Shown: one piece after another, positions 3,222-41,200 of the stretch
Layout: each line of letters opens with the position of its first letter
Numbering within the stretch: the stretch's first letter is position 1
Assembly: GCA_964016885.1 (NCBI GenBank)
Contig: OZ024740.1
Location: forward strand, 89,404,001 to 89,468,000
Length of the DNA: 64,000 nt
Direction: 5' to 3'
From: Eledone cirrhosa
Lineage: Eukaryota
Notes under the pieces: generated by a model
Told to the model about the DNA's origin: nothing
The model's database searches: none
Seen by the model: the letters and a program-made list of their open reading frames with translations, nothing else
Program-made: the position numbers and the translations under genes

Positions 3222-3273
3222 CTGTGTGTGTGTGTGTATTTAAAAAAATAGAGGTATGACACACGAGTTGTGA

Positions 3274-5453
<2,180 letters not shown>

Positions 5454-9700: not shown

Positions 9701-10706
9701 AAGTCCCATTTACTGCTGAAATGGAAAACACAGAAAAAGCAAAGCAGGTAAAAGTAACTGCAAAGAAAGAACTGCAACAGAAACTGGCTAAGAAATGGCA
9801 AGAGAAGCCTCTGTATGGAAAATACCCAGAGCGAGCTAACAATCCTGATGTTGACAAAACTTTAACCCATCAGTGGTTGGCAACCTCTGGACTGAAATCG
9901 GAGACTGAAGGACTGATTATATCGGCACAAGATCAGTGTCTGCCAACAAAAAATTACCAAGCCAACATAATAAAAAATGGGTGCAGCCCATTATGCCGTG
10001 TATGCAAAAAACAACCAGAGACCATTGACCATATAATTTCAATGTGCAGTCCTATAGCTCCAACCGAATACCTAAACAGGCATGACAGAGCTGCACAATA
10101 CATACATTGGATAATGTGTAAGCATTTTGACCTGCCCCATCAAAAGAATTGGTGGGAGCATCAACCACCTCCCATACTTGAAAAAGATCACATCTCAATC
10201 TTCTGGAACTTTAGCATCCAAACAGACCGAAAAATAGATGCAAATAGACCTGATATAATATTGAAGGACTTTCAAAGGAGGGTATGACTGCTAATTGATA
10301 TGTCTGTTCCAATAGACAAGAATGTATCTATAAAAACATTTGAACAATTGAGCAAGTATAAGGACCTGGAGATAGAAATTGGAAAAATGTGGAAATTGAG
10401 AACTAAAACAATACCAGTGGTTGTAGGCGCTCTGGGAATGATACCTAAGGGGTCTAACGACTACTTATCGCAAATCCCAGGAAACCCGCGTATAGGAGAA
10501 ATACAAAAGATAGTACTAATGGGAACTGCCCATATACTAAGGAAGATCCTGTCAATATAAGTACATCACAACTCTAAACACTAAGGATGCATGTGTGAAT
10601 ATGTATGTTTTTTCTTGAACATGGCGGACCTTGTTGTCTCTTGAGGTCACTGGTTGTGACTTGGTGATAACTCGTATAAACATAAAGCAAGATAAATGCA
10701 AACAAA
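6745..10706 (+). mobile_element. Near full-length R4/Dong-clade non-LTR retrotransposon (RT plus restriction-like endonuclease)
   Basis: Single long disrupted ORF 6911-10560, GC-rich structured 5' UTR, and a 3' end running into (TAA)n at 10707-10757. Confidence 0.9.
6911..10560 (+). pseudogene. R4/Dong ORF (RT, CCHC zinc knuckle, PD-(D/E)xK endonuclease) with two stops and one frameshift
   Basis: Motifs NYRPITCL, IDYKKAFDS, GIFQGDSLSPLLF, YMDDLKL, CRVCKKQPETIDHIISMC and RPDIILKD...IDMSVP...KYKDL. TAG at 8405, 1-bp loss near 8742, TGA at 10285. Confidence 0.9.
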
Positions 10707-10757
<51 letters not shown>

Positions 10758-10759
<2 letters not shown>

Positions 10760-12804
10760 TTTCTTTATTAACCACAAGGGTGTACATAAAGTAGACATTA
10801 AGGACAGTGCAGGACAATGCAGGACGGTACAAATGGGCATTTCTGCGTGTAAAAAACAAAAACAGAGGATGTAACAAAAAATAACAATGAAAAATTCCCC
10901 AATAGGGGGCAGACTTCGGTGGGACATTTGTGGAGAAAGCCCAGTAAAAAGCCACAATGACCCTGACCACCAAGGCAAGTGCCCTCTCCCAGTTTTCCAC
11001 CTTTAATTTACAGATATATACTCAGAGTAGGCCCATTCACTCGGGCCATTCTTGCTTCTCTCACCCATCTTTCAACAAAATGCTGGGAAGAGAGCACTTC
11101 CCTCTCTACTCTGATTTTCCTTTTCAAATGAAATTTGAAAAAGTCAATCGGAGCATCACCGAAGAGGTAAGTGCTCGTCTTCAGCCCTTTCAAACGTGTC
11201 CACCATACTATCTCTTTCACCATGGCCACCAGGCAGATAAAAACTGCCTGCCCTTCCCGGCTAAAGGAGGAGGGCGGGGCAATCCTCACGATGGATTCAG
11301 ATGATAGCCGGATCCGTCCTAAACGCGACAGCAGGTGTTCGACATAAACCCACAAGTCAGCAATTTTCGGACACTGGACGAGTGCGTGCAGGACGGTTTC
11401 GTCGCCCTGCGCGCATCTCGGACATGCCCGGCTGACGGCACCTCCATGCCTGTAGAGTTTATCCCGAACTGGCAAGGCTCCTCGGTAGCACTGCCAGGCC
11501 AGAGATTTCTGGAAGTTGTCCATAGGCCCTGGCCCGAAAGTTCATCCGAAGAGATTGGCTAGTTGATTTTCGTGGACGCCTAGAGTTTCTCCAAGTACGT
11601 CGTCGCTCTTCCCCTCCACTAATCCCCTATAGAACGCCAAGGTGGAGTTTCCACCGATCACATTGCCCGATTGGTCGAGGGCTGTGAGCGCCTGAAAACA
11701 TTCCAGTCTCCAGGCGCTCCCTCTCGGTCTTCGCTTGTCCCAGGACTGCAGCTCCGTCAAGGAAACGAGCGGGGAAAAATGCGTCTAGCAAACGGCGACC
11801 ACACCTGATCACCGTCGAGGAAGAGGTGGAGATGTCGTAGCCTGAGCGCGTGCCTGCGCATCATCAGCCACGGCATGCCCAGCCCTCCACGTAGCGGGTG
11901 TTGACAACAGATGGACCGCCTGACCATCGGAGTACGTCCCTTCCACAAAAAGCGAAAGAGCAAACGCTCCAGCGCAGTCAGGCGAGGCTTAGGACAAGGT
12001 ACGACGGTCAGGCGGTAGCAGATGACAGACGCGATGTACGCGTTAGCCACCTCCGCTCGACCTTTCAGGGATAGCTTCCTCTCCGCCCATTTCTGGGTGA
12101 GAGAAGCCACCCTGCTCGTCACCTCGTCCCAGTTTTTGTCCGTCTGGAGGTCCGGACCGAACCAGACCCCTAGCAATTTAACCGGTCCGTCCGTCCAGCG
12201 CCCGACGACGCTGTTGGACGGCATGGACCTGCCTCTCCAGGTGCCGAGCTGCAGGCCCACTGACTTTTCCTGGTTGATCATTGCTCCTGTCACCGCTTCG
12301 TATTCTCTTAGTGTAGTGCCGATCGCCTCGATGTGTTTGGCGTTCGACACCACTACGGTGACATCGTCCGCATATGCTGACACGGATCTTCCGCATCCTA
12401 GTTCGCGCGGGACTCCCCTCAACGTCTCCAGTTTGTACAGTAATGGCTCGAGAGTCAATACGTACAAGAGGGACGAGAGGGGACATCCTTGGCGGACCGA
12501 GCGCATGATGTTGAACGGTTCCGACAGGTGACCGTTCACTCTCACCACAGAGCAGATGTCGCTGTGCATGGCAGCGATCCAGCCTCTGAAGACGGGCCCA
12601 AAGCTAGCCGCCCTCAGGACTGCCGCTAGGTAACGATGGTCGACCCTATCGAAAGCTTTCGACAGATCTAAATTGATCAAGGACCCACCCGTGCCAGGTT
12701 CCTTAGCTACCCTCTCTATGATGTATCGCATGAGGTGGAGGTTGTCGTGGATGGATCTGTCGGGAATGGCGCATGTCTGCGCCTCTCCCACCAGACCACC
12801 AACG
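10758..12804 (-). mobile_element. 5'-truncated Tx1/L1-clade LINE (copy 1)
   Basis: Motifs DLSKAFDRVDH, SVRQGCPLS, AYADD and CPRCAQGDETVLHALVQC. Nearly identical to 14412-16455. Both ends lie in (TAA)n. Confidence 0.9.
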
Positions 12805-12829
12805 AGAATAATAATAATAATAATAATAA

Positions 12830-14349
12830 TACTTCATGGACGATCTTAAGCTCTTCGGGAAAAGTGAGAAGGAGTTGGATGTGCTTGTTGACACTGTCCG
12901 TATTTTCAGCAGTGATATATGTATGCAGTTTGGTATTGGTAAATGTGGAGTCATTGTGATGAAGATTGGTAGGTTGAGCAGAAGTAACGGGATCCAGATA
13001 CCAACAGGTGAGATGATAAAGGAAATTGACTCTGAGGAAGGATAGAAGTATTTGGGCATTCTGGAGGCTGATGGCATAAAGAACAAAAAAATGAAGGAAT
13101 TGTTAAGAACTGAATACATTCGGAGAGTAAGGAGCGTATTTAAGTCACATCTGAACAGCAGAAATGCCATAAGCGCAGTAAATTCCCGAGCTGTGTCTAT
13201 TATTAGGTACAGTGCGGGAAATCTGAGATGGAATGTTGCTGAACAAAAAGAAATGGATAGGAAGACTAGAAAGCTATTGACTATCTACAACATGTTCCAT
13301 AAGAGGAGTGATGTCGATAGACTCTACCTAAGGAGGTCTGAGGGTGGAAGAGGTCTTATCAGCATAGAGGACTGTGTTCAGATGGAGAAAAACAACCTAT
13401 ACAAATACGTGACCTATAGTAAGGAGCCAATGCTCAGAACTGTACTGAAGGAGGAGACAGTAGGCCAGGGGATGTCCAAGGAGGAAATAACATCAAGGAG
13501 GAAGAGCAGCCTTAAGGGAAAATCCCTTCATAGTACCTTCTTTGAGAAAACTGAATTTAGAGATCCACATACATGGAACTGGTTGAGAAGAGGAGACCTC
13601 AAAAAGGCTACAGAAGGAATGCTAATGGCTGCGCAGGAGCAGGCCCTCAAAACGAAGTGGTTGAAGCACCATATCTACAAGGAGGAGGCTAGCCCACTGT
13701 GCAGGATCTGTGGAGAGAGAGAGAGGAGACTGTGGCTCACATTGTGTCCGAGTGTAAACACCTAGCCCAGACCCACTATAAGGGCTGGAGACACGATGTG
13801 ATGGGCAGGGTGATCCACTGGCACCTGTGCAAAGTAAACAATTTACCACATTCTGAGAAATGGTATGAGCATAGGCCAGAGGCGGTGATGGAGAACAATC
13901 AGGTGAAGGTGCTGTGGGATTTTAGGATACAGACGGACAAAAAACTGGAACACAATAGACATGACCTGGTGGTTGTGGACAAAGAAAAAAGATCGTGTCT
14001 GATTGTGGATGTGGCCTGCCCGTTCGACACGAGAGTGCAAGAGAAGGAGAGGGAGAAAATTAACCGATACCAGGACCTAAAGTGGGTGGTGAAAAGGATT
14101 TGGAACTGCCATGAAGTCAAAGTGATTCCGATTGTCATAGGCGCACTGGGGACTATCTCCAAATGTTTCCAGGGATGGTTAAAGAAAATCGGCCCCTTCA
14201 CGCTTTTTGGAACGCTTCAAAGGGCATGTTTGCTTGGAACAGCAAGAACCCTCCGATACGTCCTGAATATCTGAGGCTGCAGGTAGTGGCTTGATATTCA
14301 ATCCAACGGACTTTCTAGTTAACCAACATCAATGACTGAGATTCAAGGA
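12830..14349 (+). mobile_element. 5'-truncated second R4/Dong-clade element (different family)
   Basis: Starts at YFMDDLKLF directly after (TAA)n. Contains CRICGE...HIVSEC and HDLVVVD...VDVACP...RYQDL. Ends in (TAA)n at 14350-14411. Confidence 0.88.
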
Positions 14350-14375
14350 ATAACAACAATAATAATAATAATAAT

Positions 14376-14411
<36 letters not shown>

Positions 14412-14413
<2 letters not shown>

Positions 14414-17400
14414 TTTCTTTATTAACCACAAGGGTTTACATAAAGTAGACATTAAGGACAGTGCAGGACAATGCAGGACGGTACAAATGGGCATTTCTGC
14501 GTGTAAAAAACAAAAACAGAGGATGTAACAAAAATAACAATGAAAATAACAATGAAAAATTCCCCAATAGGGGGGAGACTTCGGAGGGACATTTGTGGAG
14601 AAAGCCCAGTAAAAAGCCACAATGACCCTGACCACCAAGTCAAGTGCCCTCTCCCAGTTTTCCACCTTTAGTTTACAGATATATACTCAGAGTCGGCCCA
14701 TTCACTCGGGCCATTCTTGCTTCTCTCACCCATCTTTCAACAAAATGCTGGGAAGAGAGCACTTCCTTCTCTACTCTGATTTTCCTTTTCAAATGAAATT
14801 TGAAAAAGTCAATCAGAGCATCACCGAAGAGGTAAGTGCTCGTCTTCAGCCCTTTCAAACGTGTCCACCATACTATCTCTTTCGCCATGGCCACCAGACA
14901 GATAAAAACTGCCTGCCTTTCCCGGCTAAAGGAGGAGGGCGGGGCAATCCTCACGATAGACTCAGATGATAGCTGGATCCGTCCTAAACGCGACAGCAGG
15001 TGTTCGACATAAACCCACAAGTCAGCAATTTTCGGACACTGGACGAGTGCGTGCAGGACGGTTTCGTCGCCCTGCGCGCATCTCGGACATGCCCGGCTGA
15101 CGGCACCTCCATGCCTGTAGAGTTTATCCCGAACTGGCAAGGCTCCTCGGTAGCACTGCCAGGCCAGAGATTTCTGGAAGTTGTCCATAGGCCCCGGCCC
15201 GAAAGTTCTTCCGAAGAGATTGGCTAGTTGATTTTCGTCGACGCCTAGAGTTTCCCCAAGTACGTCGTCGCTCTTCCCCTCCACTAATCCTCTATAGAAC
15301 GCCGAGGTGGAGTTTCCACCGATCACATTGCCCGATTGGTCGAGGGCTGTGAGCGCCTGAAGACATTCCAGTCTCCAGGCGCTCCCTCTCGGTCTTCGCT
15401 TGACCCAGGACTGCAGCTCCGTCAAGGAAACGAGCTGGGGAAAAACGCGTCTTGCAAACGGCGACCACACCTGATCACCGTCGAGGAAGAGGTGGAGATG
15501 TCGTAGCCTGAGCGCGTGCCTGCGCATCATCAGCCACGGCATGCCCAGCCCTCCACGTAGCGGGTGTTGACAACAGATGGACCGCCTGACCATCGGAGCA
15601 CGTCCCTTCCACAAAAAGCGAAAGAGCAAACGCTCCAGCGCAGTCAGGCGAGGCTTAGGACAAGGTACGACGGTCAGGCGGTAGCAGATGACAGACGCGA
15701 TGTACGCGTTAGCCACCTCCGCTCGACCTTTCAGGGATAGCTTCCTCTCCGCCCATTTCTGGGTGAGAGAAGCCACCCTGCTCGTCACCTCGTCCCAGTT
15801 TTTGTCCGTCTGGAGGTCCGGACCGAACCAGACCCCTAGCAATTTAACCGGTCCGTCCGTCCAGCGCCCGACGACGCTGTTGGACGGCATGGACCTGCCT
15901 CTCCAGGTGCCGAGCTGCAGGCCCACTGACTTTTCCTGGTTGATCATTGCTCCTGTCACCGCTTCGTATTCTCTTAGTGTAGTGCCGATCGCCTCGATGT
16001 GTTTGGCGTTCGACACCACTACGGTGACATCGTCCGCATATGCTGACACGGATCTTCCGCATCCTAGTTCGCGCGGGACTCCCCTCAACGTCTCCAGTTT
16101 GTGCAGTAATGGCTCGAGAGTCAATACGTACAAGAGGGACGAGAGGGGACATCCTTGGCGGACCGAGCGCATGATGTTGAACGGTTCACTCTCACCACAG
16201 AGCAGATGTTGCTGTGCATGGCAGCGATCCAGCCTCTGAAGACGGGCCCAAAGCCAGCCGCCCTCAGGACTGCCGCTAGGTAACGATGGTCGACCCTATC
16301 GAAAGCTTTCGACTGATCTAAATTGATCAAGAACCCACCCGTGCCAGGTTACCTAGCTACCCTCTTTACGATGTATCGCATGAGGTGGCGGTTGTCGTGG
16401 ATGGATCTGTCGGGAATGGTGCATGTCTGCCCCTCTCCCACCAGACCACCAACGACAAGCGCCAACCTCTTTGCTAGCACCTTGGCCAAAATCTTGAACT
16501 CTGTGTTTAGCAGAGTTGTGGGCCTAAAGCTATCTATGTTATCCCCTTGTTCGGATCCTTTCTCAGCAGCGCCAGCGTTCCTCGGCTCACAGAGCTGGGA
16601 ATTCTCCCGTTCTGTTGTCTGTTGCAGTAGACGTCCGCCAAGAGGCCTCCAAACAAGTCTGGAATTTGTACGTAAAGTTCATGTGGCAGATGATCCAAAC
16701 CAGGCGATTTACCCCTTGTGCAGCCAGTCATTGCCTCACGTACTTCAGCGGCTGTTATCGGCTTTTCGCAACACTCCGCCTCAGTGGCCGAGAGCCGCGG
16801 CAGTCCGTCGAGGTAGACACTAAAGTCCATCCCTCGATCCGGCCCGGCGCTGCCCCCGAACATTTGAGCGAAGTGTCGCTGAAAAGCTTCCCATATTTGC
16901 CCGGGATCAAGTAGCATGCGCCCGTCGTGGTCCACCAAAAACCGGATCGTGGCTCTGTTGCCACGACGCGCCTCCGCCACTTGGTCAAGGGCCAATTTCG
17001 CCGCAAGTACGTCGGTCGCGATGACTTTGCTAAGCGCCTCCTCTAACTTTCTAACTAGTTCTCCCTCTGCTCTATTTTTCTCTATAGCTAAAGCGTTACT
17101 AAATCTAGTGGACTCTATTCTAATTGCTCTTTTCAGAGCAGACCAGCACTTGTTGTTGACGATGGCCCCCGTCAACGCCCGCTTAACTAGTTCGCTAATC
17201 CGGTCTCTGTAGGCCTAGCGCGCTGGTAAGGACGCGTTTAGCTTCCAGTAGCCGGGTCCTCGTCTATGAAGCCTATCTAAGTCAAGCACTCAGATCACCA
17301 ATATGTGGTCCGTGTAGCTGACTATCTTGAATTGTGGACAGCCTAAGCTAGACCTATCTATTTCCCTACAAAATACTCTATCAAGATATGATCTGGATGA

Positions 17401-20026
17401 CCCTAAACGATTTGTCCATGTCCTCATTGGCACATTCAGGAAAAACAATCAGTACCTTTTCAGACAGTTCAAAACGCCTAATCAGGTTGGTGAGGCTCTT
17501 GCACACTCCTCCCTATCCACTAATCCCACACAGTCCCAGCGTGCATCTAACATACCGTTCCAGTCGCCCACTAACACTAAAGAGCGGGACGTTCCAAGAA
17601 AGGTCTCCAGACGCCGGAAGAAATCAGGCTGCCCTGCTCCTGTCGGGGCATAGACGGCCACTAACCTGAAAGCTTGCCCTTCTCCGCTGGTCACGTCCAG
17701 CACCACCAGCTTACCTTCTGGGTCCAGGAAGATGGCCCGTATGGCAAGATCCAAACCTCTCCGAAAAAGCAAAGCAACTCCCCCCCCCCCGATCCCGGAC
17801 GGCTGGGAGATGCGTACACATCGTAGCCGCCGAAGATCGGTGCGAAGGCCCGTGCTTCGGAGATTCTGGTCTCGCTGATGGCCACTACATCTATGTTTAG
17901 TGACCTGAGGACGTTGAGCAGGTGGCCCTGCTTCCATGACGACCCCAATCCACGTGCATTTATGCTGCCTATTCTGAGTGAGGCCATGTTGAAATGGGGT
18001 GGAAAAGATGGGAAAGACCACTTACCTTACTTCTCGTAGAGGAAGGACGGTTTTTCCATCCTTTTCACTGCTTGTGGCCTCCCCAGGCAGGATGTCCTTA
18101 TTAATCCTCCTGGAGAGTGCTTGTCGGAAGTCTCCAATGTCTTTGGGGAATTTTTGTTTTAGTGTCATGTACGTTTTCTGTGTGATGCGAGTGATTTGCA
18201 TGTGTGGAGGTGTGAATTTTTGTGTAGTCTTTTTCTGTGATGCTGGTGTTGTGTTAGATGTAGTGTAATAATTGGTTGTTGTTCAAATTTAATGATGTGT
18301 AGTGTGTATCGTTTTGGTTGTTTTGTTTTGTTTGCGTTTGTTGTGAGTTTGTTTCTGTTATGCTTTTTGGTCACTTTTGTGGTGTTGGTGTTTGTGGTGA
18401 TGGGGTTGGTGATGCTTTTTTCCTGATACCGTTTCCCACTCCTCGTCGTCACAATCTGTCTCCAGTTGTGATAGGCCGGGGAGTGGAAAATCCTCCACAG
18501 GCGTTAGTTTTGTTTGTGGCGTGATGGATGGTGTAGGAGCTGGTGCTAGTTCTGAATAGTTGGGTGGTGGTGGTGTTGGTTTTGCTACTGTTGGTGGAGT
18601 TGTTGTTATAGTTGCTTCTGTTGTTGCTGCTACAGTTGTTGCTGCCATCTCCGCTACTGGTGGTGTTGATGGTTGAGTCACTGGGGTGGGTAGGAGCGGT
18701 GGCCTCAACCTTTTAGCCTGAGGGCAGAGAAAGCCGTTAGGTGGCTTCCTTCACCACAAACGACACACCTAGGCCTTCTGCCCTTGACAATTACGGTGAA
18801 GTGGCTGCCGTCAGTGAGGTCTATTACCTCTGCGATCTCCTCAATACTTTTTTGGTCAGCTTGGATCAGGAGCACCATCCCAGATCCGGACCAGTTCTCC
18901 TGCTTTTCATTTGATATTGCTATTATTTTCGTGTTGGCTTCGATGCCGGCCAGGACGGCCGCCATTAGCCAGGGAATTTCGGTGGCCGGTGGAACGTCGG
19001 TCTCGCTGATCTTTACGAGTCTCTGGCCACAATAGCTTGGAACGAGTGTGAAGTCGTCACTTCTTAATGGGGCCATGGAGTGTTCTCTAGCCTCCTCTGG
19101 TGTTTCAAAGAACACGTCCACGGTTCTATACTTCTGGCCAAGTCTGATGTGGGTTTTTCTTGCCCACACATGTCCCAAAGCTTTTTGGATTTGGGACGCG
19201 GATGCCCGTTCCACTCGGCGCGATTTTACATTAATTGTTCGATACGACACGGTGCATAGGCGCCGATGCTCCATTTTATTAGGTGGAGGGTGAGGCTGAC
19301 CCTGTACCCATCTTTCTTTACCATTTTTTTGGCATTTTCTAATTCCTCCTGAGTTATCTGAAATGCTTCGCACTGTTTTGCTACTCTCGTAAAACTCAGG
19401 GTGGTTTTTTTAATGTCATTGTTGCTGTTGTTGTTATCGTTATTTTTGTTATTATTAATTTTAGTTTCAGTTGTGGTGGTGGTGACGTCAGTGGTGTTCG
19501 GTATGGAAGAGTCCATTTTGGTTGAATTCATTTCGACATCAGGAGTTAATTTATATTTTTCTTTTGTTTCTGTTGTCGCGGTGGTGGTGGGGGTGGGGGG
19601 TTGTCGCGGTGGTGGTGGTGGTGGTGGCGGCTTTAACACCTGCAGTCATTGGTAATGGCGGGAAATGAATGTCTGCCTGAGACAAATTAAAAATATTGCT
19701 ACTGCTTAAATTTTTAGTGTTGGCAAACGTAGTAATATTTTCAATGGTGGTGTCGGTGTGAGGTGTTAGTTTATGAGGAAGGCTGTCAGCTTCGTGTGGC
19801 TGTGAGACTTCCATGTTTTTTTTCAAAGAAATTATTTTTTGATAATTATAAATTTTTAAATTTTGGGCACAAGGCACCAATCTTTTTGGGTGTCCTTTTC
19901 GGAAAACAATGTATGTGCGCTTATATACAGTTAACAATAAAATTTTCCATAAATGGCAATTTTCAACAAACGGAAACAACAAACATTTGCGGAGCTCATG
20001 TAATACGATTTACTACGTAGGTGGCC
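14412..20026 (-). mobile_element. Full-length decayed Tx1/L1-clade LINE (copy 2) with ORF1 and ORF2
   Basis: ORF1 pieces at 18705-19982 include the zinc knuckle remnant CVVCGEGSH. ORF2 starts at 17987 with MASLRIGSINARGL and carries VYAP and GDWN (APE endonuclease), RT and CCHC through 14673. Flanked by (TAA)n. Confidence 0.9.
14673..17987 (-). pseudogene. Tx1 ORF2 (APE endonuclease, RT, zinc finger), frameshifted
   Basis: ORF fragments 17691-17987, 17482-18021, 16534-17175, 16121-16330 and 14673-16172. A short deletion near 16185 relative to copy 1 shifts the frame. Confidence 0.88.
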
Positions 20027-20065
<39 letters not shown>

Positions 20066-20067
<2 letters not shown>

Positions 20068-23062
20068 TTTCATTTATTAGCCACAAGGGCCGACATGTAG
20101 GTCAAGTAAAAAAGGTCGAGTAAAAGTGCACAATGGTAAGACTAATTTAACAATGAAAATATAAAAATATAAAATAAACTATGCATAAATATAACAAAAT
20201 AAATTCCCCGATAGGGGGTGGACGATGCTGGGGTGATTCGGGTACCCCACTAATGCTGAACCATACTGCGCTTCTAGGGCACCCCTCTCCTCAAGTTAGC
20301 CAGCCTATAGGCGCATGGTCAGAGTAGGCCAATTCACACGAGCCATTCTCGCCACATTCACCCACCTTTTAGCAAATGTACTGGGGAGAAGCACTTCTCT
20401 CTCCAGCCTCACCTTACTTTCCAGGTGAAACTTGAAGAAGTTGATGAGGGATTGGCCGAAGAGAAAAGTGTCTGTCTTTAGTCCTTTCCACCTGGTCCAC
20501 TATATAATCTCTTTCGCAACTGCCACCAGACAGAGGAAAATTTCCTGCTCTTCCTGACCTAAGGAAGGCGGTGGATCGATCTTCACTATGGGCTCAGCCG
20601 ATAGCCGGATTCGTTCCACACGCGACAGTAGCTGTTCGACATAACTCCACAAGTCAGTAATGCACGGACAATGGACAAGTGCGTGCAGAACGGTTTCGTC
20701 GTTCTGTGCGCAACTTGGGCAGGTCCGTCTGACAGCACTTCCGTGCCTGTAGAGTTTGTCCCGAACCGGCAGTGCCCCCCGGTAGCACTGCCAAGCGAGG
20801 GATTCCTGGAAATTGTCCATCGTCCCTGGCTCAAACGTCCTCCGTTACAGACTGGTCAGATCGACTTCGTCGAGGCCCAAATCTTCTCCGAGTGCGTCAT
20901 CGCACTTGCCCACCACTAATCCTCTGTAGAACTCGAGAGTGGAAGTTCCACTGATCGCATTTCCCGCTTGGTAGTGGGCAGTGAGTGCCTGACAACATTC
21001 CAGGTGCCAGTCACCCAGTCTCGGTCTCTTCTTGGCCCAGGACTGCAGCTCAGTCAAAGAAATGAGCTGCGAAAAGGCCCGTCTGATAAACGGTGACCAC
21101 ACCTGTTCACCGTTGAGGCAAAATATCTGGAGATGTCGCAGTCTCAACGCATGTCTGCGCATCATTAGCCACGGCATGCCCAGCCCTCCGCGTAGAGGGT
21201 GCTGGCAGCAGATGGACCGCCTCAGCAACGGAACTTGTCCCCTCCACAACAATTTGAAGAGGAGCCGTTCCAACTTGACGAGGCGCGGACGGGGGCAAGG
21301 CACGACGGTCAGGTGGTAGTAGATGACGGACGCGATGTACGCATTCGCCACCTCCGCGCGACCTTTCAGTGATAGCTTCCTCCCAGTCCATTTTTGGGTG
21401 AGACTGGCTACTCTGCTCGTTACCTCGTCCCAATTCTTTTCCACCTAGAGGTCTGGTACGAACCAAACCCCGAGCAACTTTAGCGGTCCGTCCGTCCAGC
21501 ACCCCACGACGTTGTTGGACGGCATGGGCTTGCCTCTAGAGGTTCCGAGCTGCAAGCCCACCGACCATTCCGGGTTAAGTTTGGCTCCTTTCAACCTTTC
21601 ATATTCCTTCAATAAGGTGCCGACCACCTCGATTTCTGAGGTGTTCGACACCATCACGGTGATGTCGTCTGCATAAGCCGACACCGCCTTTCCACGTCCC
21701 GGTTCGAGCGGGATGCCCTGCAACAGCTCCAGCTTCCGCAGTAAAGGCTCGAGAGTCAATACATACAGAAATGAAGAGGGGGGCACCCTTGACGCACCGA
21801 TCGGGAGAGCTCAAATGGTTCCGAGAGGTGGCCATTAACCTTGACCACCGAGCGTGTGCCGCTGTGCATTGCAACGATCCAGCTTCTAAAGACAGGGCCG
21901 AAGCCAGGTTTACACCCTACCCTCTCTATGATGGATCGCATGAGGTGAAGATTGTCGTGTATGGACCTGGCTGGGATTGCGCAGGTTTGCGCCTCCACAA
22001 TCAAATCCTCGACGACAAGCGCCAATCTCTTTGCTAACACCTTGGCCAAAATCTTAAACTCTGTGTTGAGCAGAGTTATGGGCCTGAATTTGTCTAATGT
22101 ATCCCTCTTGTTGTCGTCTTTCCTTATCAGCGTCACCACTCCCCTGCTCACAGAACTGGGAATACTCCCATTCTGCTGCCAGTTGCAGTAGAGTGGTTCG
22201 AGGAGTTCGGAGAACAAGTCTGGCATATTTACGTAAAGCTCGTTGGGCAGGCTATCCAAACCGGGTGACTTGCGCCTCATGTAGCCGACAAGGGCGTCCT
22301 GAATTTCGGTTGAAGTAATCGGCTTTCGCAGCGCTCAGCGTGAACCGTCGAGATGCGCGGCAAGCCGTCAAGGTAGGGACTGATATGCGCTACTCTCTCT
22401 GACTCGCCACTCTCCCTGAACAACCGAGCAAAGTGCTGGCGAAAGGCCTCACACATCCGCTTGGAATCGCTTATCTCGTGTCCGTCTCGGTCCGCCAAAG
22501 ACCGAATTGTGGTTTTATTACAACGCTGCGCCTCCGCCACGCGGGCCCATCGAACAGCTTTAGTTCCCTCGTTTCTCAGCGCACGCGCCTTAGCTCTGAC
22601 AATGCAACCTTCGTGTTTCGCATTGAAGAAATGGTCTAATGCCATTCTCGCCGCTAGCACGTCAGTTGCGATGCCACTGCAAATAGCCTCGTCTAACTTA
22701 TCTACCAGCTCACCCTCCTTTCTATTTTTCTCTAGCGCTAGTTCTTTGCTGAAATCTATCGAATTTACTCTAATATCTCTTTTGAGAGCCACCCATTATC
22801 TGTTGTTGATGATCCCCCCTGTCAACTTTTGCTTAACTAAGTTGTTGACTCGGTCCCTGTAAGCCTTACGTGCCGGAAATGACATGTTCAGCTTCCAGTA
22901 ACCCGGTCCTAACCTACGCGTTTTATTTATGTCGACCTTACAGATCACACATTTGTGATCTGAATAGGCGACCGTTTTAAAAAGTGGACAGCCCACACTA
23001 TTTTTATCTATTTTCCTAATGAAGATCCTGTCTATATACGATCTAGATGACCCTATGCGGTT
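20066..23062 (-). mobile_element. 5'-truncated Tx1/L1-clade LINE of a second subfamily (copy 3)
   Basis: Motifs YIDRIF...SDH...GYWKLN, FRPITLLNTEFKILAK, AYADD and CPSC...HALVHC. The 3' UTR is distinct from copies 1 and 2. The 3' end lies in (TAA)n. Confidence 0.88.
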
Positions 23063-27099: not shown

Positions 27100-29183
27100 C
27101 TATTGAAAATTACAATGAGTTCATATATAAAGAACTCAGGAAAAATTATAGAAAAACAAATAATGCGTCACTTACCAACATCAACAACAAAACACACAGC
27201 ATAGTGAATAGACTTAATATTGAAGATAGAACTGAACCTTTGGCATTGAAAAGACCACACTTCAACTGAAAGATCATAAATCTAACTTTAACTCTAATCC
27301 TTCTATAGGGCTTATATGCCCTTCCAAATCTGATATTGGAATAATTAGTAAAACAATTTTAGATAGAGTCATCCCACAACTAAGAAATCATGTTAATTTA
27401 CCACTCTGGGAAAACACATCCCAAGTAATTAACTGGTTTAATAATATTGGAAATAAATCCTCTGCTTCATTCCTACAATTTGATATAGATAATTATTATT
27501 CTTCTATACCACCTATACTCCTGAACAAAGCCTTGATATTTGCTAAAAATAGATCTAACTTAACTTTGGATGACATTAATATTATTACACATGCTAGACT
27601 AACAATATTGGAATTTCAGAATGAATACTGGACCAGAAACACATATAGTAATCTATTCGATATTACTATGGGCTCAAGCGATTCTGCCCAAATTACTGAT
27701 CTTGTGGGCCTCTTTCTTCTTTTTAACATATATGCTTCTTTTCCCCACCTTAAAGGTGGTTTATATCGTGACGACTGTCTTCTTCTTTCCAATAACCTTA
27801 ACCTCTCAGAGATAGAAAAAAATAAAAAGCTTATTAGAACTTTCCTCAAAGACTATTATAGTCTAGATATTACATTTTAAAACTCAAGTAAAGTAGTTAA
27901 TTTCCTAGATATAACATTAGACTTATCTACGGGTATCTACCAACCTTACCATAAACCCAACCAAAATTTACACTACATACACTCACAATCTAATAACCCT
28001 AAATCTATCCTTAAAAACCTTGCATATAATATATCACTTAGAATGTCTAACCTTTCGTCTAACCAAGATGTATTTGATAAAAATGTGAACTTTTATAACG
28101 AAGCTCTAGCTAGAAGTGGCCACAAAAATAGATTAGTATATATACCTTCTACCAATAACACTACAAACATACAACCTAATATTACCAACAAACACCAAAT
28201 GAAACATACACACGTAAATGCCACTCACACTATACCCCAAAACACCAACATAAAACCAAATTTCTCTAACTCTTCTAATATACAGTATAGTAACTCTCAA
28301 AAAACTACTCATCCTACAACTCTAATAAATGTTAATAATAAAACTCCTAATAAACAAGCTAAAACACCTAAATCAATAATTCTACCTAAAAATGTGTGTG
28401 GTGAGGTCATTAACAATAATTCTCTTAATAAACATCAGGATGCATCCTATAAAAACAATAAACAACATCGAAACCGTAATAGACGAGTTACTTGGTACAA
28501 TGCTCCATTTAATTTACAAATTACGGATAATATAACTAAAAAATTCTTTAATATCCTAGAGAAAAACTTCCCGCCAAACCACAAATACCATCAAATCTTA
28601 AATAGATCAACGGTTAAATTCTCCTACTCAACAACCAAAAACATAAAACAAAATATAAGTGCCTATAATGCATATAAATGTAAAAAAAACCATGAGTATA
28701 CCACCAGTACATCAAACTAACCATAATATCTCCTCAGATACAGGATTCACGAAAAATTGTAACTGTAGAAACAAGGCAAACTGTCCATTAAAAGGAAATT
28801 GCCTTGTTAATAACATAGTATATAAATGTAAAGTTAACACTAAGGACTCAATTTATTCATATATAGGAGCTACCTCTAACAAATTTAAGGTAAGATTTAA
28901 TACCCACAAACATAGTTTTAAAAATGCCGCACTAGCTAATACAACAACTCTAGCTGAAATAATAAATAGTTATAGAAAGAGGAATATAGAATATAACCTG
29001 ACCTGGAGTGTGCTCAAAAGGGCCACCCCTTATCAAAATAGTAGAAATGAATGTAGATTATGTTCCCAAGAACTTTTTGAAATAATGAAATCCATGGATA
29101 TCCTATTAAATAAGCGACAGGAATTAATAATATCGTGTAATCATAAACTGAGAAAAACCTTTAAATATTATAAACCTAATTAA
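27100..29183 (+). pseudogene. Naiad-type PLE RT plus GIY-YIG endonuclease, disrupted
   Basis: Motifs FDIENYYSSI, FDITMGSSDSAQ, GGLYRDD, VNFLDITL, TWYNAPF, CNCRNKANCPLKGNC, IVY...YIG...FKVRFNTH, CRLCSQE and LLNKRQEL. Confidence 0.88.
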
Positions 29184-29600
29184 TATACACTTTAGTAATT
29201 CATTTATAAATTATTTTTATTTTAGTTCACCTATAATTAATATTCTACTACTGATGAACTACATAATTCTGCTTTAAAAATTATAAACCTAATTAATATA
29301 CACTTTAGAAATTAATATATAAACTATTTTTAATTCAGTCAACCTATAATTAATATTCTACTACTGATGAACTACAAAATGTTGCTTTCCTTCTTACAAA
29401 TATCATTTCCTAAAAGTGATACCATTAAGTAAACATGTATAATGCTTTAACTTCAGGTTATGACTCTATGTTCCTTGAAAACTATATATATTTACTATTT
29501 CTCACTAATAAATTTAATCCCCCCCCAATAATTATTTGTATATATAAGTGTATATGTGTGTGTATATGTAAGTGTATGTATGTATATATGCATGTATATA

Positions 29601-29683
<83 letters not shown>

Positions 29684-29739
29684 GTGAGGTTTTTTTTACA
29701 AAATGAAAAATAACCGAGGTGTCCTACACGAGTAAAAGT

Positions 29740-30034
29740 ATAAAGAAAAAGAGATGAAATCGAAAATGCAACTGAAGTCTTATTTTTTTAAAAAATATAT
29801 ATATTTATTTGGTTCCTTTACCGGTGTCGCAGTTCTTCTGCTTTTCAAAAGGTGAGTTGAGATGGATGGTCTGTGGTTTTTCTCACATCTGATGTGAGAA
29901 AAACCACAGACCCTCCATCTCAACTCACCTTTTGAAAAGCAGAAGAACTGCGAAACCGGTAAAGGAACCAAATAAATATATATATTTTTTAAAAAAATAA
30001 GACTTCAGTTGCATTTTCGATTTCATCTCTTTTT

Positions 30035-30040
<6 letters not shown>
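29740..30040. repeat. ~300-bp near-perfect palindrome made of two pLTR fragments (family F)
   Basis: Centre at about 29890 (ctcacatc-t-gatgtgag). The right arm recurs at 31606-31741. Confidence 0.92.
29928..29965 (+). ncRNA. Minimal type I hammerhead with U3-A8 core swap (family F); copies at 29815-29852 (-) and 31643-31679 (+)
   Basis: CCTT-TTGAAAA-GCAG AAGAA CTGC-GAAA-CCGG-TA-AAGG. Palindromic stem III ACCGGT and a GUA site. Confidence 0.78.
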
Positions 30041-31429: not shown

Positions 31430-31747
31430 AGGATGAATATAAAATGAAAGTGCTTTTGTTAAAAAAGGAATTTATTAGGTATTGACATATGTTTCTGTAA
31501 CAGACCGAATACCTATGTATCGCTGCTTGCGTAATCATATAATGTTAGCAAGTATTCGATAGCAAATGTATAATCAGTTGTATAATCATATATATATTTA
31601 TAAGTGTGTGAGAAAAACCACAGACCCTCCATCTCAACTCTACTTTTGAAAAGCAGAAGAACTGCGAAACCGGTAAAGGAACCAAATAAATATATATATA
31701 TTTTTTTTAAATAAGACTCCAGTTGCATTTTCGATTTCATCTTTATT

Positions 31748-31833: not shown

Positions 31834-33360
31834 ACTATACAGATCATTTGAAGTTTTTTCCAAATTGAAGGATGAGTATTTTAAACTTTATTTTATCATG
31901 AGTTGATTTTTCCCTGGATTTCACTAAATTCTGTTGGGTGAATCTATATCCTGATTCTTTTTGAGTTGAGTTTGAATTATTTTTCCCACATCTTACGTTA
32001 ACTATTTTTCCCATGTTGACGCTATAGTCACTTATATATTATGGAATACTGTTGGCCTTTTGCTACAATATTTTCTATACCTTTGATTTATATATTTATA
32101 CTCGGATTTCTTTCCTAGAGTGCTTAAATTATTTGTGACTAATCCCGGTATTTTTATATAAAAAAACCGCGATAATATTGCTTTTTGCTGAACTCCTTAT
32201 TGTAGAGTTTTTTTCAGAATGTTTTTGACTGTTGTTTCTTGTAAACAAACATTCGTCTCATTCTGACGTCACCAGCCCTGTCTTTCCACATGTGCGTTTT
32301 ATTTTCATAATAACGCATGATGGTGAACTAGCCTGCTTTTAATTCCCTTTTTGGCATATTAATCAGTGAGAAATTTTGGTTATCGAGTTGAGCTCTGCTG
32401 AGGATCGGATTCCAACCATGAGCATCTCCACTGAAAGTTTTCGTGAAATGGCCTTCAAGACTATACACTGCATTTGAAGTTTTTTTCAAAATTGAAGGAT
32501 GAGTATTTAAAACTTTATTTTATTATAAATTAAGGCTCTATTGATTTTTTCCTGGATTTCACTAAATTCTGTTGGATGAATCTATATCCTGATTCTTTTT
32601 GAGTTGAGTTTGAATTATTTTTCCCACATCTTACGTTAAATATTTTTCCCATTTTGACGCTATAGTCACTTATATATTATGGAATACTGTTGGCTATTTG
32701 CTACAATATTTTCTATACCTTTCATTTATATATTTATACTCGGATTTCTTTCCTAGAGGGCTTAAATTATTTGAGACTAATCCCGGTATTGTTATATAGA
32801 AAAAACCGCGATAATATTGCTTTTTGCTGAACTCTTTATTGTAGAGTTTTTTTCGGAATGTTTTTGAATGTTGTTTCTTGTAAACAAACATTCGTCTCAT
32901 TCTGACGTCACGAGCCCTCTCTTTCCACATGTGCGTTTTATTTTCATAATCATGCATGATGGTGAACTAGACTGCTTTTAGTTCCCTTTTTGGCATATTA
33001 ATCACTGAGAATTGTTGGTTATAGAGTTGAGCTCTGCTGAGGATCGGATTCCAACCGTGAACATCTCCACTGAAAGTTTTCGTGAAATAGCCTTCAAGAC
33101 TATACAGAGCACTTGAAGTTTTTTCAAAATTGAAGGATGAGTATTTTAAACTTATGTTATCATGACTTAAGGCTCTATTGATATTTCCCTGGATTTCACT
33201 AAATTCTGTTGGATGAATCTATATCCTGATTCTTTTTGAGTTCAGGTTGAATTATTTTTCCCACATCTTACGTTAACTATTTTTCCCATGTCGACGCTAT
33301 AGTCACTTATATATTATGGAATACTGTTGGCTTTTTGCTACAATATTTTCTATACCTTTC

Positions 33361-33366
<6 letters not shown>
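31831..33366 (+). repeat. Tandem array of ~630-bp units (about 2.4 copies) with a hammerhead at each junction
   Basis: Units start at aagactataca at 31831, 32457 and 33096. The array has (TA)n on both sides. Confidence 0.92.
33031..33110 (+). ncRNA. Type I hammerhead (family H); second copy at 32392-32471
   Basis: GCTCTG-CTGAGGA(33037)-T.CGGA...TTCG.T-GAAA(33084)-TAG CCTTCAAGA CTA-TA-CAGAGC. Stem I is 6 bp, with an AUA site. Confidence 0.75.
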
Positions 33367-33405
<39 letters not shown>

Positions 33406-33454
33406 TATAGTGACGAAACATAAGTCAATTGCATGAACTCATAATCCGTTATTT

Positions 33455-33510
33455 ACTGCTATATATATTTCGATGATAGCCATTGAATGGCTATGACCTC
33501 ATCAGGCAGT
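33455..33510 (-). ncRNA. Type I hammerhead (family I), canonical core
   Basis: ACTGC-CTGATGA-GGT c ATAGCCA TTCAA TGGCTAT c ATC-GAAA-TATATA-TA-GCAGT. Confidence 0.85.
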
Positions 33511-34288: not shown

Positions 34289-34373
34289 CCTTCTGACGAG
34301 AGTTTATTTTTTCAATGGAAGGCCGCAAGGACTGTCCATTTATTTTTGAGACTCTAAACCGATTCGGTAAAGG
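34289..34373 (+). ncRNA. Hammerhead motif with G12U, probably inactive (family J)
   Basis: CCTT-CTGACGA-GAGTTT...AGACTC-TAAA-CCGATTCGG-TA-AAGG. The inner stem II is capped by a GCAA tetraloop. Confidence 0.65.
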
Positions 34374-34454: not shown

Positions 34455-35430
34455 ATAGATAAGGTTAATATATCTGAGGGTACTATGTACCCCCAGAAAT
34501 ATATAGGGTGTCTATGATTTAAGGTGGTTCTATGGTAATAATTTGATATACCAGAACTTAATATCAAGATAAGCAGAACAAGTAAAATTCAACCAATTTT
34601 TCCAAATAAATCATAATTAATTTACAATTAAACTTAATCAAAATTAAAAAAATATAATATAAATATTTACCTATTCGAGTAGCTCTTACTGTACAGTTTC
34701 ACTTTGCAAAACATTAGATATCACATGGATATTAATGGAAAAGCAAATATCATCAGAGAAGCATTTTCCTTTTTTAGGGTTAAAAACCCCAGGAACGATA
34801 AAATATATGACCTCACTCCAACTAATACAGGTCTGAAAGGTCGTGAAAGTGACCCATAAATACGTTGGTGTATAGTGAAGGCGGGAAATCGTAGACTTGT
34901 TGTCTATGTTCGCTACCAAAAAAAATTTTTAGCAGCTAGATAGAACGACAGAATTTTTTTCTCTACATAATCGGAGAATAATGGATAAGGTTAATATATC
35001 TGAGGGTACAATGTACCCCCAGAAATATATAGGGTGTCTATGATTTAAGGTGGTTCTCATGGTAATAATTTGATATACCAGAACTTTATCGTTCCTGGGG
35101 TTTTTAACCCTAGGAAAGGAAAATGCTTCTCTGATGATCTTTGCTTTTCCATTAATATCCATGTGATATCTAATGTTTTGCAAAGTGAAACTGTACAGTA
35201 AGAGCTACTCGAATAGGTAAATATTTATATTATATTTTTTAATTTTGATTAATTTTAATTGTAAATTAATTTTGATTTATTTGGAAAAATTGGTTGAATT
35301 TTACTTGTTCTGCTTATCTTGATATTAAGTTCTGGTATATCAAATTATTACCATAGAACCACCTTAAATCATAGATACCCTATATATTTCTGGGGGTACA
35401 TTGTACCCTCAGATATATTAACCTTATCTA
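34455..35430. mobile_element. Short PLE-type insertion: inverted ~345-bp pLTRs plus a partial third copy (family K)
   Basis: 34457-34800 is the reverse complement of 35087-35430. 34985-35085 repeats 34457-34560. Confidence 0.85.
35125..35205 (+). ncRNA. Type I hammerhead (family K); inverted copy at 34682-34762
   Basis: TCT-CTGATGA(35131)-T.CTTTGC...CATTA.ATATC/GATAT.TAATG...GCAAAG.T-GAAA-CTGTACAG-TA-AGA. Palindromic stem III ACTGTACAGT. Confidence 0.82.
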
Positions 35431-38224: not shown

Positions 38225-41200
38225 CACGGGGACATAGAAATAGTCGGGCTGGATACGCGAACGTGCAGTTAAACCACTGGGAGTGAAGGACCCCTAGCCC
38301 TTGTCAGGGCATTCTTCTAGGAGAAGGCAACTCAGGAAACTGGGTTAACTCCGACATAAACCTGCGCTCAGTAGTTACCGATGATGTTGATATTTTCTTC
38401 TTTTCAGGTTATAGCTACTGTCGCTCAGAGAGTGGGATTGGTTCAGTGCACAGTCTTTCCTCACTTTAAACATATTCTTCACGCACAGGCATTGCACGAT
38501 TGCATCAATTAATAATCATTAATAGTGTGTTATTATTATTATTATTATCGTTACTATTATTATTACTTATTTTTTCCAATTCAATGATGTTCCATGACAA
38601 TATAAAAGAGATAATTGGCAATAAGGGTTCTGGAACAAAAGAGATAATTGGCAATATGGGCAGGGGCCCCAGGTTATCACAGCCTGGGCCCGCTCGTCAT
38701 CGTGCTACTGTAATAGAGCCAAACAAGGCATTTGGTCTTTGCTACTAGAACGTACAGACGCTGCTAGACAGGGATTCCTTGGAACGTCCTGAACGAAGGA
38801 CCGCTCTTGTTGCAAAAGAGTTTCGACGTTACGATCTTGACATCGTAGCTTTATCTGAGACGACGTTAGCTGGAGATGGTCATCTTACAGAATTTTGTGG
38901 AGAATATACAATCTTCTGGAAAGGAAGAGATGAAGGACCAGAAGGGAGGCCGGAGTAACATTTGCTGTTACGACTGCTCTTGTGGATACAGTAGAATCAT
39001 TTCCAGTGGGGATTAGTTACCGTCTTATGTCCATCAAAATTACGCTGGACAAAGAAAGATATGCAACCCTAGTGAATGTGTATGCTCCATCTATGAATTC
39101 TGTCGATGAAGAAAAAGTGTCCTTTTACTATTCATTGAAAGGTGTTTTAAGAAATATCCCTCAGGCAGACAAAGTCATCGTGCTTGGTGACTTTAATGCT
39201 AGAGTGGGTAGTGATTTTAACACATGGAATGTAATCGGAAGTCATGGGGTGGGAAAGTGTAACAACAATGGTATGCACTTGCTGCAGAAGTGTGAGCAGC
39301 TGGATCTGTGTGTTACCAACACCATGTTCCAACAAAAGAACAAATTTAAGACTACATGCCATTTTTTGAACTACGTCCTTGTCAGGATGCGAAACAGAAG
39401 GGGTGTGCAGAGTGTTCCTTCTCTTCGTGGAGCTGAGTACTGGACGGACCACCGCCTGGTACGCGCAAAAGTGAAACTAATCCCTAAACATAAAATCAGG
39501 GCTCCTTGTGTTACCCTGCCCAGAAGATTGAATGCTGTTCGTCTTAGGGATAAAAATCTGAAGAGGACATTGCGAGAAGAGATGCAGGTTGCAGATCTTG
39601 GTGAGGATTGGCCGACTCTTAAAAAGTTGGTTTATGATGTAGGCGGGCGTGTTCTGGGATTGGTGCAGAGAAAACATCGAGACTTGTTTAATGAGAATGA
39701 TGAACATATAGAAGATTTGTTGGCTGATAAGAGGCGTGCTCTGTCACGCTACTTGACAGCAAAACCAGAGGAGAAGAATATGTTGCATAGGGAACTAAAA
39801 GATGTGAAATCAGGTGTTAGGCGGAGTCTTTCTCAGATGAAGGATCAGTCGTGTAGTGAGAAGGCTGATGAGATACAAGCTGTGTCAGATTCCAATAACA
39901 CAAAGCTGTTGTACAGTCTTTTGCATGAAGTTTATGGACCGTCTTCTTCTCTTGTGACACCGATTCGCAGCAAGGATGGCAAATAACTTCTTCGGGACTT
40001 ACAAGGAATTCTACGAAGGTGGCGAGAGCACTTTCATGTACTTTTGAATCAGCTGTCTGTCGTCAATGAAGATTTCCTCAATCTCATTCCAGAAAGTCCC
40101 GTGGAAGTAGCTAACGCAGAACCTCCGAGGCTTGTAGAGGTTGCAGTAGCTATCTCGAAGCTGAACAGTGGAAGGTCTCCAGGTATGTATGGCATACGTG
40201 CAGAGCTCCTACAATATGGTGGTGAGAGACTTCTGCAACATCTTCACTATTTGTTTGGCAGGATATGGGCTAATGAATCTGGGGGTGGAGGGATGCAGTA
40301 ATGGTGGACTTGTACAAGGAAAAGTGTAACGGGAATCATTGTGGGAACTACAGAGGTATATCATTGCATTCTGTCGTTGGGAAAGTTTTATGTAGGGTGC
40401 TTCTGGACCGTCTGCTGACACACATTGCAGATTGTTTTCTTCCTGAAATTCAATCTAGTTTTTGTGCTGGACGCGACACTACTGATATGATCTTCTAATC
40501 TAGACAGCTCCAGGAGAGGTGCATGGAAAAGGTTTGGATCTGTATCAGATTGTAGTCGATCTGACAAAAGCTTTCGATACTGTTAACATAAATGCATTAT
40601 GGAAGGTTCTCCAGAAACTTGGTTGCCCTAATAAGTTCCTTGCTTTGGTTAGGTCTTTCCATGACGTCAAGAAGGCTTGGGGTAATGTCGGAGGTAACAT
40701 ATAGGAGTCTATCTCAGTAAAAAAATGGAGTTAAACAGGGGATATTCCCGCACCGACACTGTTTGCCATATACTTTGCAATGGTTTTCTATATTGCATTC
40801 AGGAATTACGATCATGGTGTTTACTTCCAATATCGAATCTCAGGCAGCATATTTAACATCAGGCGCTTTGCTGCAAAACAAAAGTATTTACATCAATCAT
40901 GAGAGACCTATTGTATGCAGATGATTGAGATATTGTAGCGCTCACAGATAGTGATATGCATCACATTTTGAATGCATTTTCTGATGCTTGCACTGCCCTA
41001 GGATTGACTGTCAGTCTCAAGAAAACCGTTGTCATGTACCAACCGGCCCTGGTAAGCAGTACACTGAACCAAATATCTATGTGTATGGTAAACGACTTAG
41101 AGTGGTTGATCAGTTTGAATACCTTGGAAGCACTGTCAATCGATACAGCAACCTTGATATTGAAATCCCACTCAGCATTAGGAAAGCAAGTTATGCTTTC

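What the first reader, a model, noticed from the sequence alone, without database searches (positions are those of the whole stretch)
29928..29965. Natural U3-A8 compensatory swap in a 38-nt hammerhead
Seen: the core is UUGAAAA instead of CUGANGA, with a perfect stem I (CCUU/AAGG), stem II (GCAG/CUGC), GAAA, palindromic ACCGGU and GUA. All three copies have the swap, and the minus copy additionally has GACA. Known: C3-G8 is a Watson-Crick pair in the active fold, and U3-A8 can substitute but is rare in nature. The double change is good evidence of selection on catalysis.
Basis: partly seen in the sequence, partly recalled or inferred. Interest (0 to 1): 0.75.

Follow-up and report, generated by a model that had tools for sequence, protein, structure and literature searches.

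The report
Variant hammerhead in Penelope retrotransposon stub
This 38-base motif is one of about 11,600 near-identical copies carried by a young Penelope-type jumping gene; its unusual base pair is an already published variant that all copies inherited from one ancestor, and the motif is predicted to cut RNA slowly at best, which has not been tested.

Summary
The motif is real: a minimal type I hammerhead with U3-A8 at 29928-29965. It lies in a 360-bp head-to-head stub of a young Penelope-like retrotransposon; 11,626 genomic sites match it. The three window copies are not independent. Two are arms of one insertion, and GACA is a private change. No swap is seen inside the family: C3-G8 occurs in 0 young and 2 decayed old copies. 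U3-A8 is shared with a sister family (proteins about 52% identical) and is published for Penelope-element hammerheads (Cervera 2014). This scan also noted it before on other DNA (43 findings).

For selection on the fold: two compensatory stem changes between the families and 26 of 30 conserved bases. Against selection on cutting:
- The sister family spread to 4,076 sites with a core change, A13C.
- U3 is predicted to mispair with A17.
- 51 of 88 copies start at a putative transcription start and run through the uncut site.
- At most about 1% start at the cut site, with no clear excess over controls.

Verdict: a new member of a known kind, probably a slow, dimer-dependent ribozyme; cutting is untested.

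The parts
29928..29965 (+). Minimal type I hammerhead motif with U3 (29932)-A8 (29937); predicted cut after A17 = 29961
29955..29960 (+). Palindromic stem III (A15.1 to U16.1), predicted to pair between two RNA copies; its last five bases are invariant in all 9 aligned subfamily representatives
29891..30039 (+). Right arm of the stub: from the putative transcription start (about 29892) to the short 3' end (about 75 nt after the cut site), followed by (TA)n
29677..29889 (-). Left (inverted) arm of the same insertion: from the same putative start to the long 3' end (about 143 nt after the cut site), preceded by (TA)n
29815..29852 (-). Hammerhead copy in the left arm with A14C (GACA); private, likely a post-insertion change
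31642..31679 (+). Third copy, from a slightly older subfamily with a 3-bp stem I, in a separate stub of about 140 bp (about 31607-31745)
3392..3429 (-). Hammerhead of sister family B (U3-A8, A13C, compensatory stem changes; this copy has one more change at 15.1), downstream of a decayed RT/GIY-YIG fragment at about 4598-5151 (-)
34289..34373 (+). Hammerhead of another repeat family with canonical C3-G8 and the same stem I sequence (this copy has G12U); used as in-genome comparison

Best explanation
The motif is the U3-A8 variant of the minimal hammerhead found in the terminal repeat of a young Penelope-like retrotransposon, here in a short head-to-head stub that likely cannot act by itself; in the parent element's RNA it is predicted to cut slowly, and only as a dimer or with protein help. 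Shown: intact parent elements carry the motif in both terminal repeats, flanking ORF1 and an RT/GIY-YIG ORF, about 170 nt before the first ATG; copies end at two fixed 3' points and mostly begin about 40 nt upstream of the core, 32 nt below a TATAAAA; U3-A8 is shared by all sampled subfamilies and by a sister family. Inferred: the -40 point is the transcription start; reverse transcription begins at the two internal points, runs through the uncut hammerhead to the RNA 5' end, and two such short cDNAs are joined head-to-head in (TA)n; the C3-G8 to U3-A8 change happened once, before the two families split; two RNAs pair through ACCGGU to form the double hammerhead; a U3-A17 pair and the lack of evident loop-loop contacts keep cutting slow, so most templates stay whole.
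For: Element anatomy: (GIY-YIG E=3.7e-06, above cut-off; RVT_1 E=4.9e-06, below cut-off). Youth: mean 0.5% divergence among 14 intact ORF2 copies. Two 3' ends in 25 of 30 loci, counting near-matches (16 long, 9 short). Start cluster 30-46 nt upstream in 51 of 88 copies, all three window copies included. Fold under constraint: 26 of 30 bases identical between families A and B against 120 of 200 in the flanks (Fisher p=0.004); two pairs changed on both sides (C-G to U-A in stem I, G-C to U-A in stem II). All 9 clusters that I judged clear hammerheads besides A+B use C3-G8. Dimer fold. Literature: natural U3-A8 and in-vitro activity cited (Perreault 2011); low, dimer-dependent activity of these motifs (Cervera 2014); protein-assisted cutting, two internal RT starts and uncut RNA as main substrate in another Penelope element (PMC11167929).
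Against: No cutting was shown. Copies starting at the cut site are estimated at 56 (95% CI 41-71), against 18 (11-27) and 40 (24-57) at two control positions, so there is no clear footprint. Family B spread to 4,076 sites with A13C in 99 of the first 100 listed. Older A subfamilies (1,588 sites) have a mismatched fourth pair in stem II, some a G10.1-U11.1 pair, and a 3-bp stem I. Hammerhead conservation does not differ significantly from the adjacent 41-nt leader (29 of 41, p=0.15). Roberts 2023 reports low activity for core doubles other than G3-C8. Monomer folding z-score is only -0.94. No C3-G8 sister lineage was found to give the direction of the change.
Confidence: 0.6

Rival explanations
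1. The fold is kept for a non-cutting job. The ACCGGU palindrome and stems pair two element RNAs or bind the RT protein, and catalysis has been lost or is dispensable in this clade.
For: A13C is near-fixed in family B while the stems covary and the palindrome stays the same. The U3-A17 trap is predicted in monomer and dimer. Templates are copied uncut. Insertions are often two-armed with one arm from each RT start. Catalytic mutants did not affect insertion in vitro for another element (PMC11167929).
Against: Family A keeps every catalytic-core base through all sampled subfamilies. A13C could be a loss confined to family B. A weak excess of starts at the cut site is not excluded.
Confidence: 0.25
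2. Neutral decay. An ancestral C3-G8 hammerhead lost its use; C-to-T and G-to-A changes gave U3-A8 by coincidence, and the region is conserved only as part of the promoter and leader.
For: Both changes are transitions toward AT in an AT-rich region (inference). Only one event is documented. The leader is conserved almost as well as the motif (p=0.15). Stem II pair 4 passed through mismatched states in successful subfamilies.
Against: Two compensated stem pairs between A and B. U4, G5, A6, A9 and G12 are invariant across families whose proteins are about 48% diverged. U3-A8 recurs in unrelated elements.
Confidence: 0.12
3. The motif has a host function at this locus, for example as a regulatory ribozyme or hairpin RNA.
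For: The insertion could form a 151-bp RNA hairpin (-241.6 kcal/mol).
Against: It is one of about 11,600 young copies. The stub lacks the upstream TATA region. A read-through RNA would bury both hammerheads in the hairpin. One arm already has a core change.
Confidence: 0.03

Closest known systems
Minimal hammerheads of metazoan Penelope-like elements, including the U3-A8 variant of Schistosoma Cercyon elements (Cervera and de la Pena 2014, PMC4209133; parts 1-2 of 4 of the text read)
   Same: Type I, short stem I, tiny palindromic stem III, position in both terminal repeats, motifs on opposite strands 100-700 bp apart, U3-A8 covariation.
   Different: Stem II is 4 bp without the extra base after A9 that the paper describes as usual; copies are very uniform (young family); a sister family has near-fixed A13C.
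C-terminal-endonuclease Penelope-like elements of the Neptune/Nematis type (Craig et al. 2021, PMC8557442; passages read)
   Same: RT plus C-terminal GIY-YIG, CX4CxxC linker, (TA)n targets, 5'-truncated and inverted copies, optional tail, an upstream ORF1.
   Different: Clade not fixed by a tree here; the tail is about 68 nt rather than 30-40; ORF1 overlaps ORF2 in the -1 frame at a TTTTTTA heptamer kept in both families.
Anolis Poseidon element PAc (PMC11167929; passages read)
   Same: Two fixed internal 3' ends, AT-rich targets, uncut RNA as main template.
   Different: PAc has C3-G8 and its hammerhead overlaps the start codon; here it lies about 170 nt upstream, and both RT starts fall in the leader.
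Natural U3-A8 hammerheads (Perreault et al. 2011, PMC3088659; section 8 and passages read)
   Same: Same core covariation.
   Different: Here the variant is fixed in more than 17,000 genomic sites of one retroelement clade and is combined with A17.

Membership tests
Hammerhead ribozyme (type I) | Core C3 U4 G5 A6 N7 G8 A9 / G12 A13 A14 / A15 U16 H17, with a Watson-Crick 3-8 pair | tested here: met
   All positions canonical except U3-A8, a listed natural covariant. Not met in the minus arm (A14C) or in family B (A13C).
Hammerhead ribozyme (type I) | Stems I, II and III around the core | tested here: met
   Stems I and II 4 bp each; stem III only as an intermolecular 6-bp palindrome.
Hammerhead ribozyme (type I) | Match to an Rfam hammerhead model | tested here: not met
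   No hit at gathering score or at E<=10; minimal variants are probably outside those models (inference).
Hammerhead ribozyme (type I) | Loop-loop or pseudoknot contacts for fast cutting | tested here: inconclusive
   None evident from the folds; not searched systematically.
Hammerhead ribozyme (type I) | Site-specific self-cleavage | not testable with these tools
   The indirect footprint test was inconclusive.
Penelope-like element, endonuclease-bearing | RT with C-terminal GIY-YIG endonuclease | tested here: met
   775-codon frame in parent copies; PF01541 above cut-off, PF00078 below; atlas neighbours at 0.98.
Penelope-like element, endonuclease-bearing | Pseudo-LTRs with a hammerhead in both | tested here: met
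   4 of 16 fetched stretches (L073, L076, L077, L078) show the motif on both sides of the ORFs in the same orientation.
Penelope-like element, endonuclease-bearing | 5'-truncated, inverted copies with an optional tail | tested here: met
Neptune/Nematis clade | CX2-5CxxC linker before the endonuclease; (TA)n targeting | tested here: met
   CX4CxxC seen in the translation; (TA)n flanks; features from PMC8557442.
Neptune/Nematis clade | Placement in an RT phylogeny | not tested
   No reference set was available; no tree built.
Non-LTR retrozyme (non-coding tandem units) | No coding capacity; head-to-tail units of a few hundred bases | tested here: not met
   The motif belongs to a coding element.

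The most novel reading that the evidence does not exclude
In this clade the hammerhead has turned from a cutter into an RNA-pairing device. U3-A17 locks the cut site, family B lost A13 without cost, and the conserved ACCGGU palindrome joins two element RNAs so that an RT dimer copies both at once from two start points and writes the head-to-head, unequal-armed insertions. Families A and B would then be a natural test of whether Penelope hammerheads need to cut at all.
Probability: 0.15. Interest if true: 0.65.

Novelty: new member of a known kind. Interest (0 to 1): 0.25.

Why it matters
The U3-A8 variant itself is known, so the finding as written adds one more large family. Its value is as a test case for an open question, what hammerheads do in Penelope-like elements. 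One genome holds a young family with an intact but predicted slow core, a successful sister family with a core change, and thousands of stubs showing that the copied RNA was uncut. Intact 0.5%-diverged parent copies make a direct assay possible.

Tried and rejected
- DNA similarity search of the own genome returned nothing because common words are skipped; patterns were used instead.
- Rfam gave no hammerhead hit; the microRNA hits come from the palindrome and lie below threshold.
- Search for a C3-G8 sister lineage: 14 hits against 6 in the control. Most were inversion-junction artefacts or other repeats; L095 and L096 are decayed old family-A copies. Two double revertants is more than the roughly 0.05 I would expect by multiplying single rates (my estimate); unexplained, but no further C3-G8 copy appeared within one mismatch.
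- A random sample of 464 kb was too sparse for a covariation test.
- In one search, 8 of 18 clusters (2-7 members, non-pairing or mixed 3-8 states) were set aside by eye as chance matches or decayed copies; not tested.
- Cut-site footprint test: inconclusive. It used 52 of 108, 50 of 61 and 30 of 86 matches, and junction detection differs between positions.
- No RNA holder was listed, so expression is open. Contigs of two other coded organisms covered the motif at low depth without listed changes; not used as evidence.
- The neighbouring decayed ORF at 27236-29183 is not the parent: 25% identity.
- Not held in the library: Lunse 2017, Przybilski and Hammann 2007, Nelson and Uhlenbeck 2008. A search for A13C data found nothing. 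That A13 changes strongly reduce cutting is recalled; one search shows only that A13 is part of the consensus core.
- A cephalopod host was my guess, used only as a literature search word; not tested.
- Supplements and figures of Cervera 2014, Craig 2021 and Roberts 2023 were not seen; they may list this family or the C3U/G8A value.

Full report
Observation. The 38 bases at 29928-29965 are as described: stem I CCTT/AAGG, core TTGAAAA (U3 = 29932, A8 = 29937), stem II GCAG/CTGC, GAAA, palindromic ACCGGT and GTA, with the predicted cut after 29961. Three close copies lie in the window. The minus copy, with A14C, is the other arm of a 151-bp, 99% inverted repeat, so it belongs to the same insertion. 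The third copy has a 3-bp stem I. Rfam does not recognise the motif.

Copy number. A pattern from stem I to the cut site with positions 3, 7 and 8 left free matches 11,626 places in the 3.0-Gb genome, control 0; 99 of the first 100 listed have U3-A8. The C3-G8 version with up to one mismatch gives 73 hits, all single revertants (about 50 C3-A8 and 23 U3-G8 by my count) and no C3-G8. These look like post-insertion changes (inference). The swap is therefore not seen happening in this family; it is inferred from the hammerhead consensus.

Parent element. Longer copies lead upstream into the end of a GIY-YIG endonuclease. Many genomic copies have an intact 775-codon RT/endonuclease frame, and 14 such copies differ by 0.5% on average. 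Four of 16 fetched stretches show the full layout: terminal repeat with hammerhead, ORF1 of about 400 codons, ORF2, terminal repeat with hammerhead. The CX4CxxC linker and (TA)n flanks match the Neptune/Nematis type as described in PMC8557442 (passages); I built no tree. Inverted 5'-truncated copies and optional tails are described there as typical.

How the stub arose. Among the first 30 loci, 16 end 145-148 nt and 9 end 79 nt after the cut site, including a few bases of TA overlap; six inverted pairs have one arm of each kind. This matches the two internal RT starts shown for another Penelope element (PMC11167929, passages). 51 of 88 family copies begin 30-46 nt upstream of U3, most often at 40-41, which is 32 nt below a TATAAAA; all three window copies begin there. 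Family B shows the cluster less clearly, 6 of 29. These cDNAs run through the cut site, so their templates were uncut. Copies that start at the cut site are estimated at 56 (41-71), against 18 (11-27) and 40 (24-57) at control positions, from 52 of 108, 50 of 61 and 30 of 86 matches inspected. That is at most about 1% of copies and not a clear excess. This stub lacks the promoter region, and a read-through RNA would fold into one long hairpin that buries both motifs.

Is the pair under selection? Older subfamilies (1,588 sites) have U3 in all and A8 in 99 of the first 100 listed. C3-G8 appears in only two decayed copies. These subfamilies carry a mismatched fourth pair of stem II, some a G10.1-U11.1 pair, and a 3-bp stem I. 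A sister family B, about 52% identical in protein, has 4,076 sites; all 100 listed have U3-A8 and 99 have A13C. Between A and B, one pair of stem I and one of stem II changed on both sides (9 hand-picked related rows, so its shuffle counts are not probabilities). 26 of 30 bases are identical against 120 of 200 in the flanks (p=0.004), but against 29 of 41 in the adjacent leader (p=0.15). Of 18 recurring descriptor clusters in 1.14 Mb of held sequence, one is A+B, nine are C3-G8, and eight small ones were set aside by eye. So the fold is probably constrained, U3-A8 arose once for A+B (inferred), and constraint on cutting is not shown.

Predicted activity. Two copies pair through ACCGGU with probability 0.92, giving the double-hammerhead fold. 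With U at 3 and A at 17, stem I is predicted to extend by a U3-A17 pair: probability 0.56 in the monomer and 0.46 in the dimer, 1.4 kcal/mol more stable for both sites together. This parallels the inactive C3-G17 state discussed in PMC3884650 (passages); the parallel is my inference. Perreault 2011 reports natural U3-A8 and cites in-vitro activity (section 8). Roberts 2023 found strong rescue only for G3-C8 and low activity for other core doubles in one hammerhead (passages; heat map not seen). Cervera 2014 found low activity for such minimal motifs even as dimers. Slow, dimer- or protein-dependent cutting is the most likely reading (0.6); a non-cutting role (0.25) and neutral decay (0.12) remain open.

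Novelty. U3-A8 in Penelope-element hammerheads is in print, with about 1,300 hits in Schistosoma (PMC4209133). This scan's index holds 43 notes with these words in at least 10 genomes, two of those shown from this genome; none matched this sequence. I found no paper on this family, on an A13C family or on the U3-A17 trap, but Lunse 2017 and the supplements were not available. Verdict: new member of a known kind, interest 0.25. What is worth keeping is the A versus B contrast as a ready test of whether these ribozymes must cut.

Noticed in passing
L076:1232-4698 and L072-L079; family B in L176: ORF1 and ORF2 overlap by about 90 nt in the -1 frame in 8 of 8 copies spanning the site, with a TTTTTTA heptamer (NHFLD) that family B also keeps. 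Likely a programmed frameshift; PMC8557442 Fig. 1 mentions such frameshifts without my seeing for which clade.
   Followed up: partly
window 3240-5151 (-); L169-L198: Sister family B, 4,076 sites, with near-fixed A13C; the change also creates a second palindrome (TGCGCA) next to ACCGGT.
   Followed up: partly
window 34289-34373 (+); L101-L120: C3-G8 hammerhead with the same stem I and a long stem II; 1,064 sites, often about 485 nt apart in tandem, retrozyme-like.
   Followed up: partly
window about 33455-33510 (-) and 34700-34760 (-): Two further canonical minimal hammerheads with palindromic stem III, of other repeat families.
   Followed up: no
window 27236-29183 (+) and 29240-29380: Decayed RT/GIY-YIG-like frames of a different Penelope-type family, followed by two tandem repeats of about 113 nt that hold a CTGATGA core half.
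   Followed up: no
window 31903-33441: Three tandem units of about 638 nt, next to a hammerhead at about 33460; not examined.
   Followed up: no
window 8728-22331 and 38934-39986: Several LINE-like reverse transcriptase and endonuclease fragments.
   Followed up: no
L095, L096: Two old family-A copies with full C3-G8, more than single-change rates predict; no sister copies found.
   Followed up: partly
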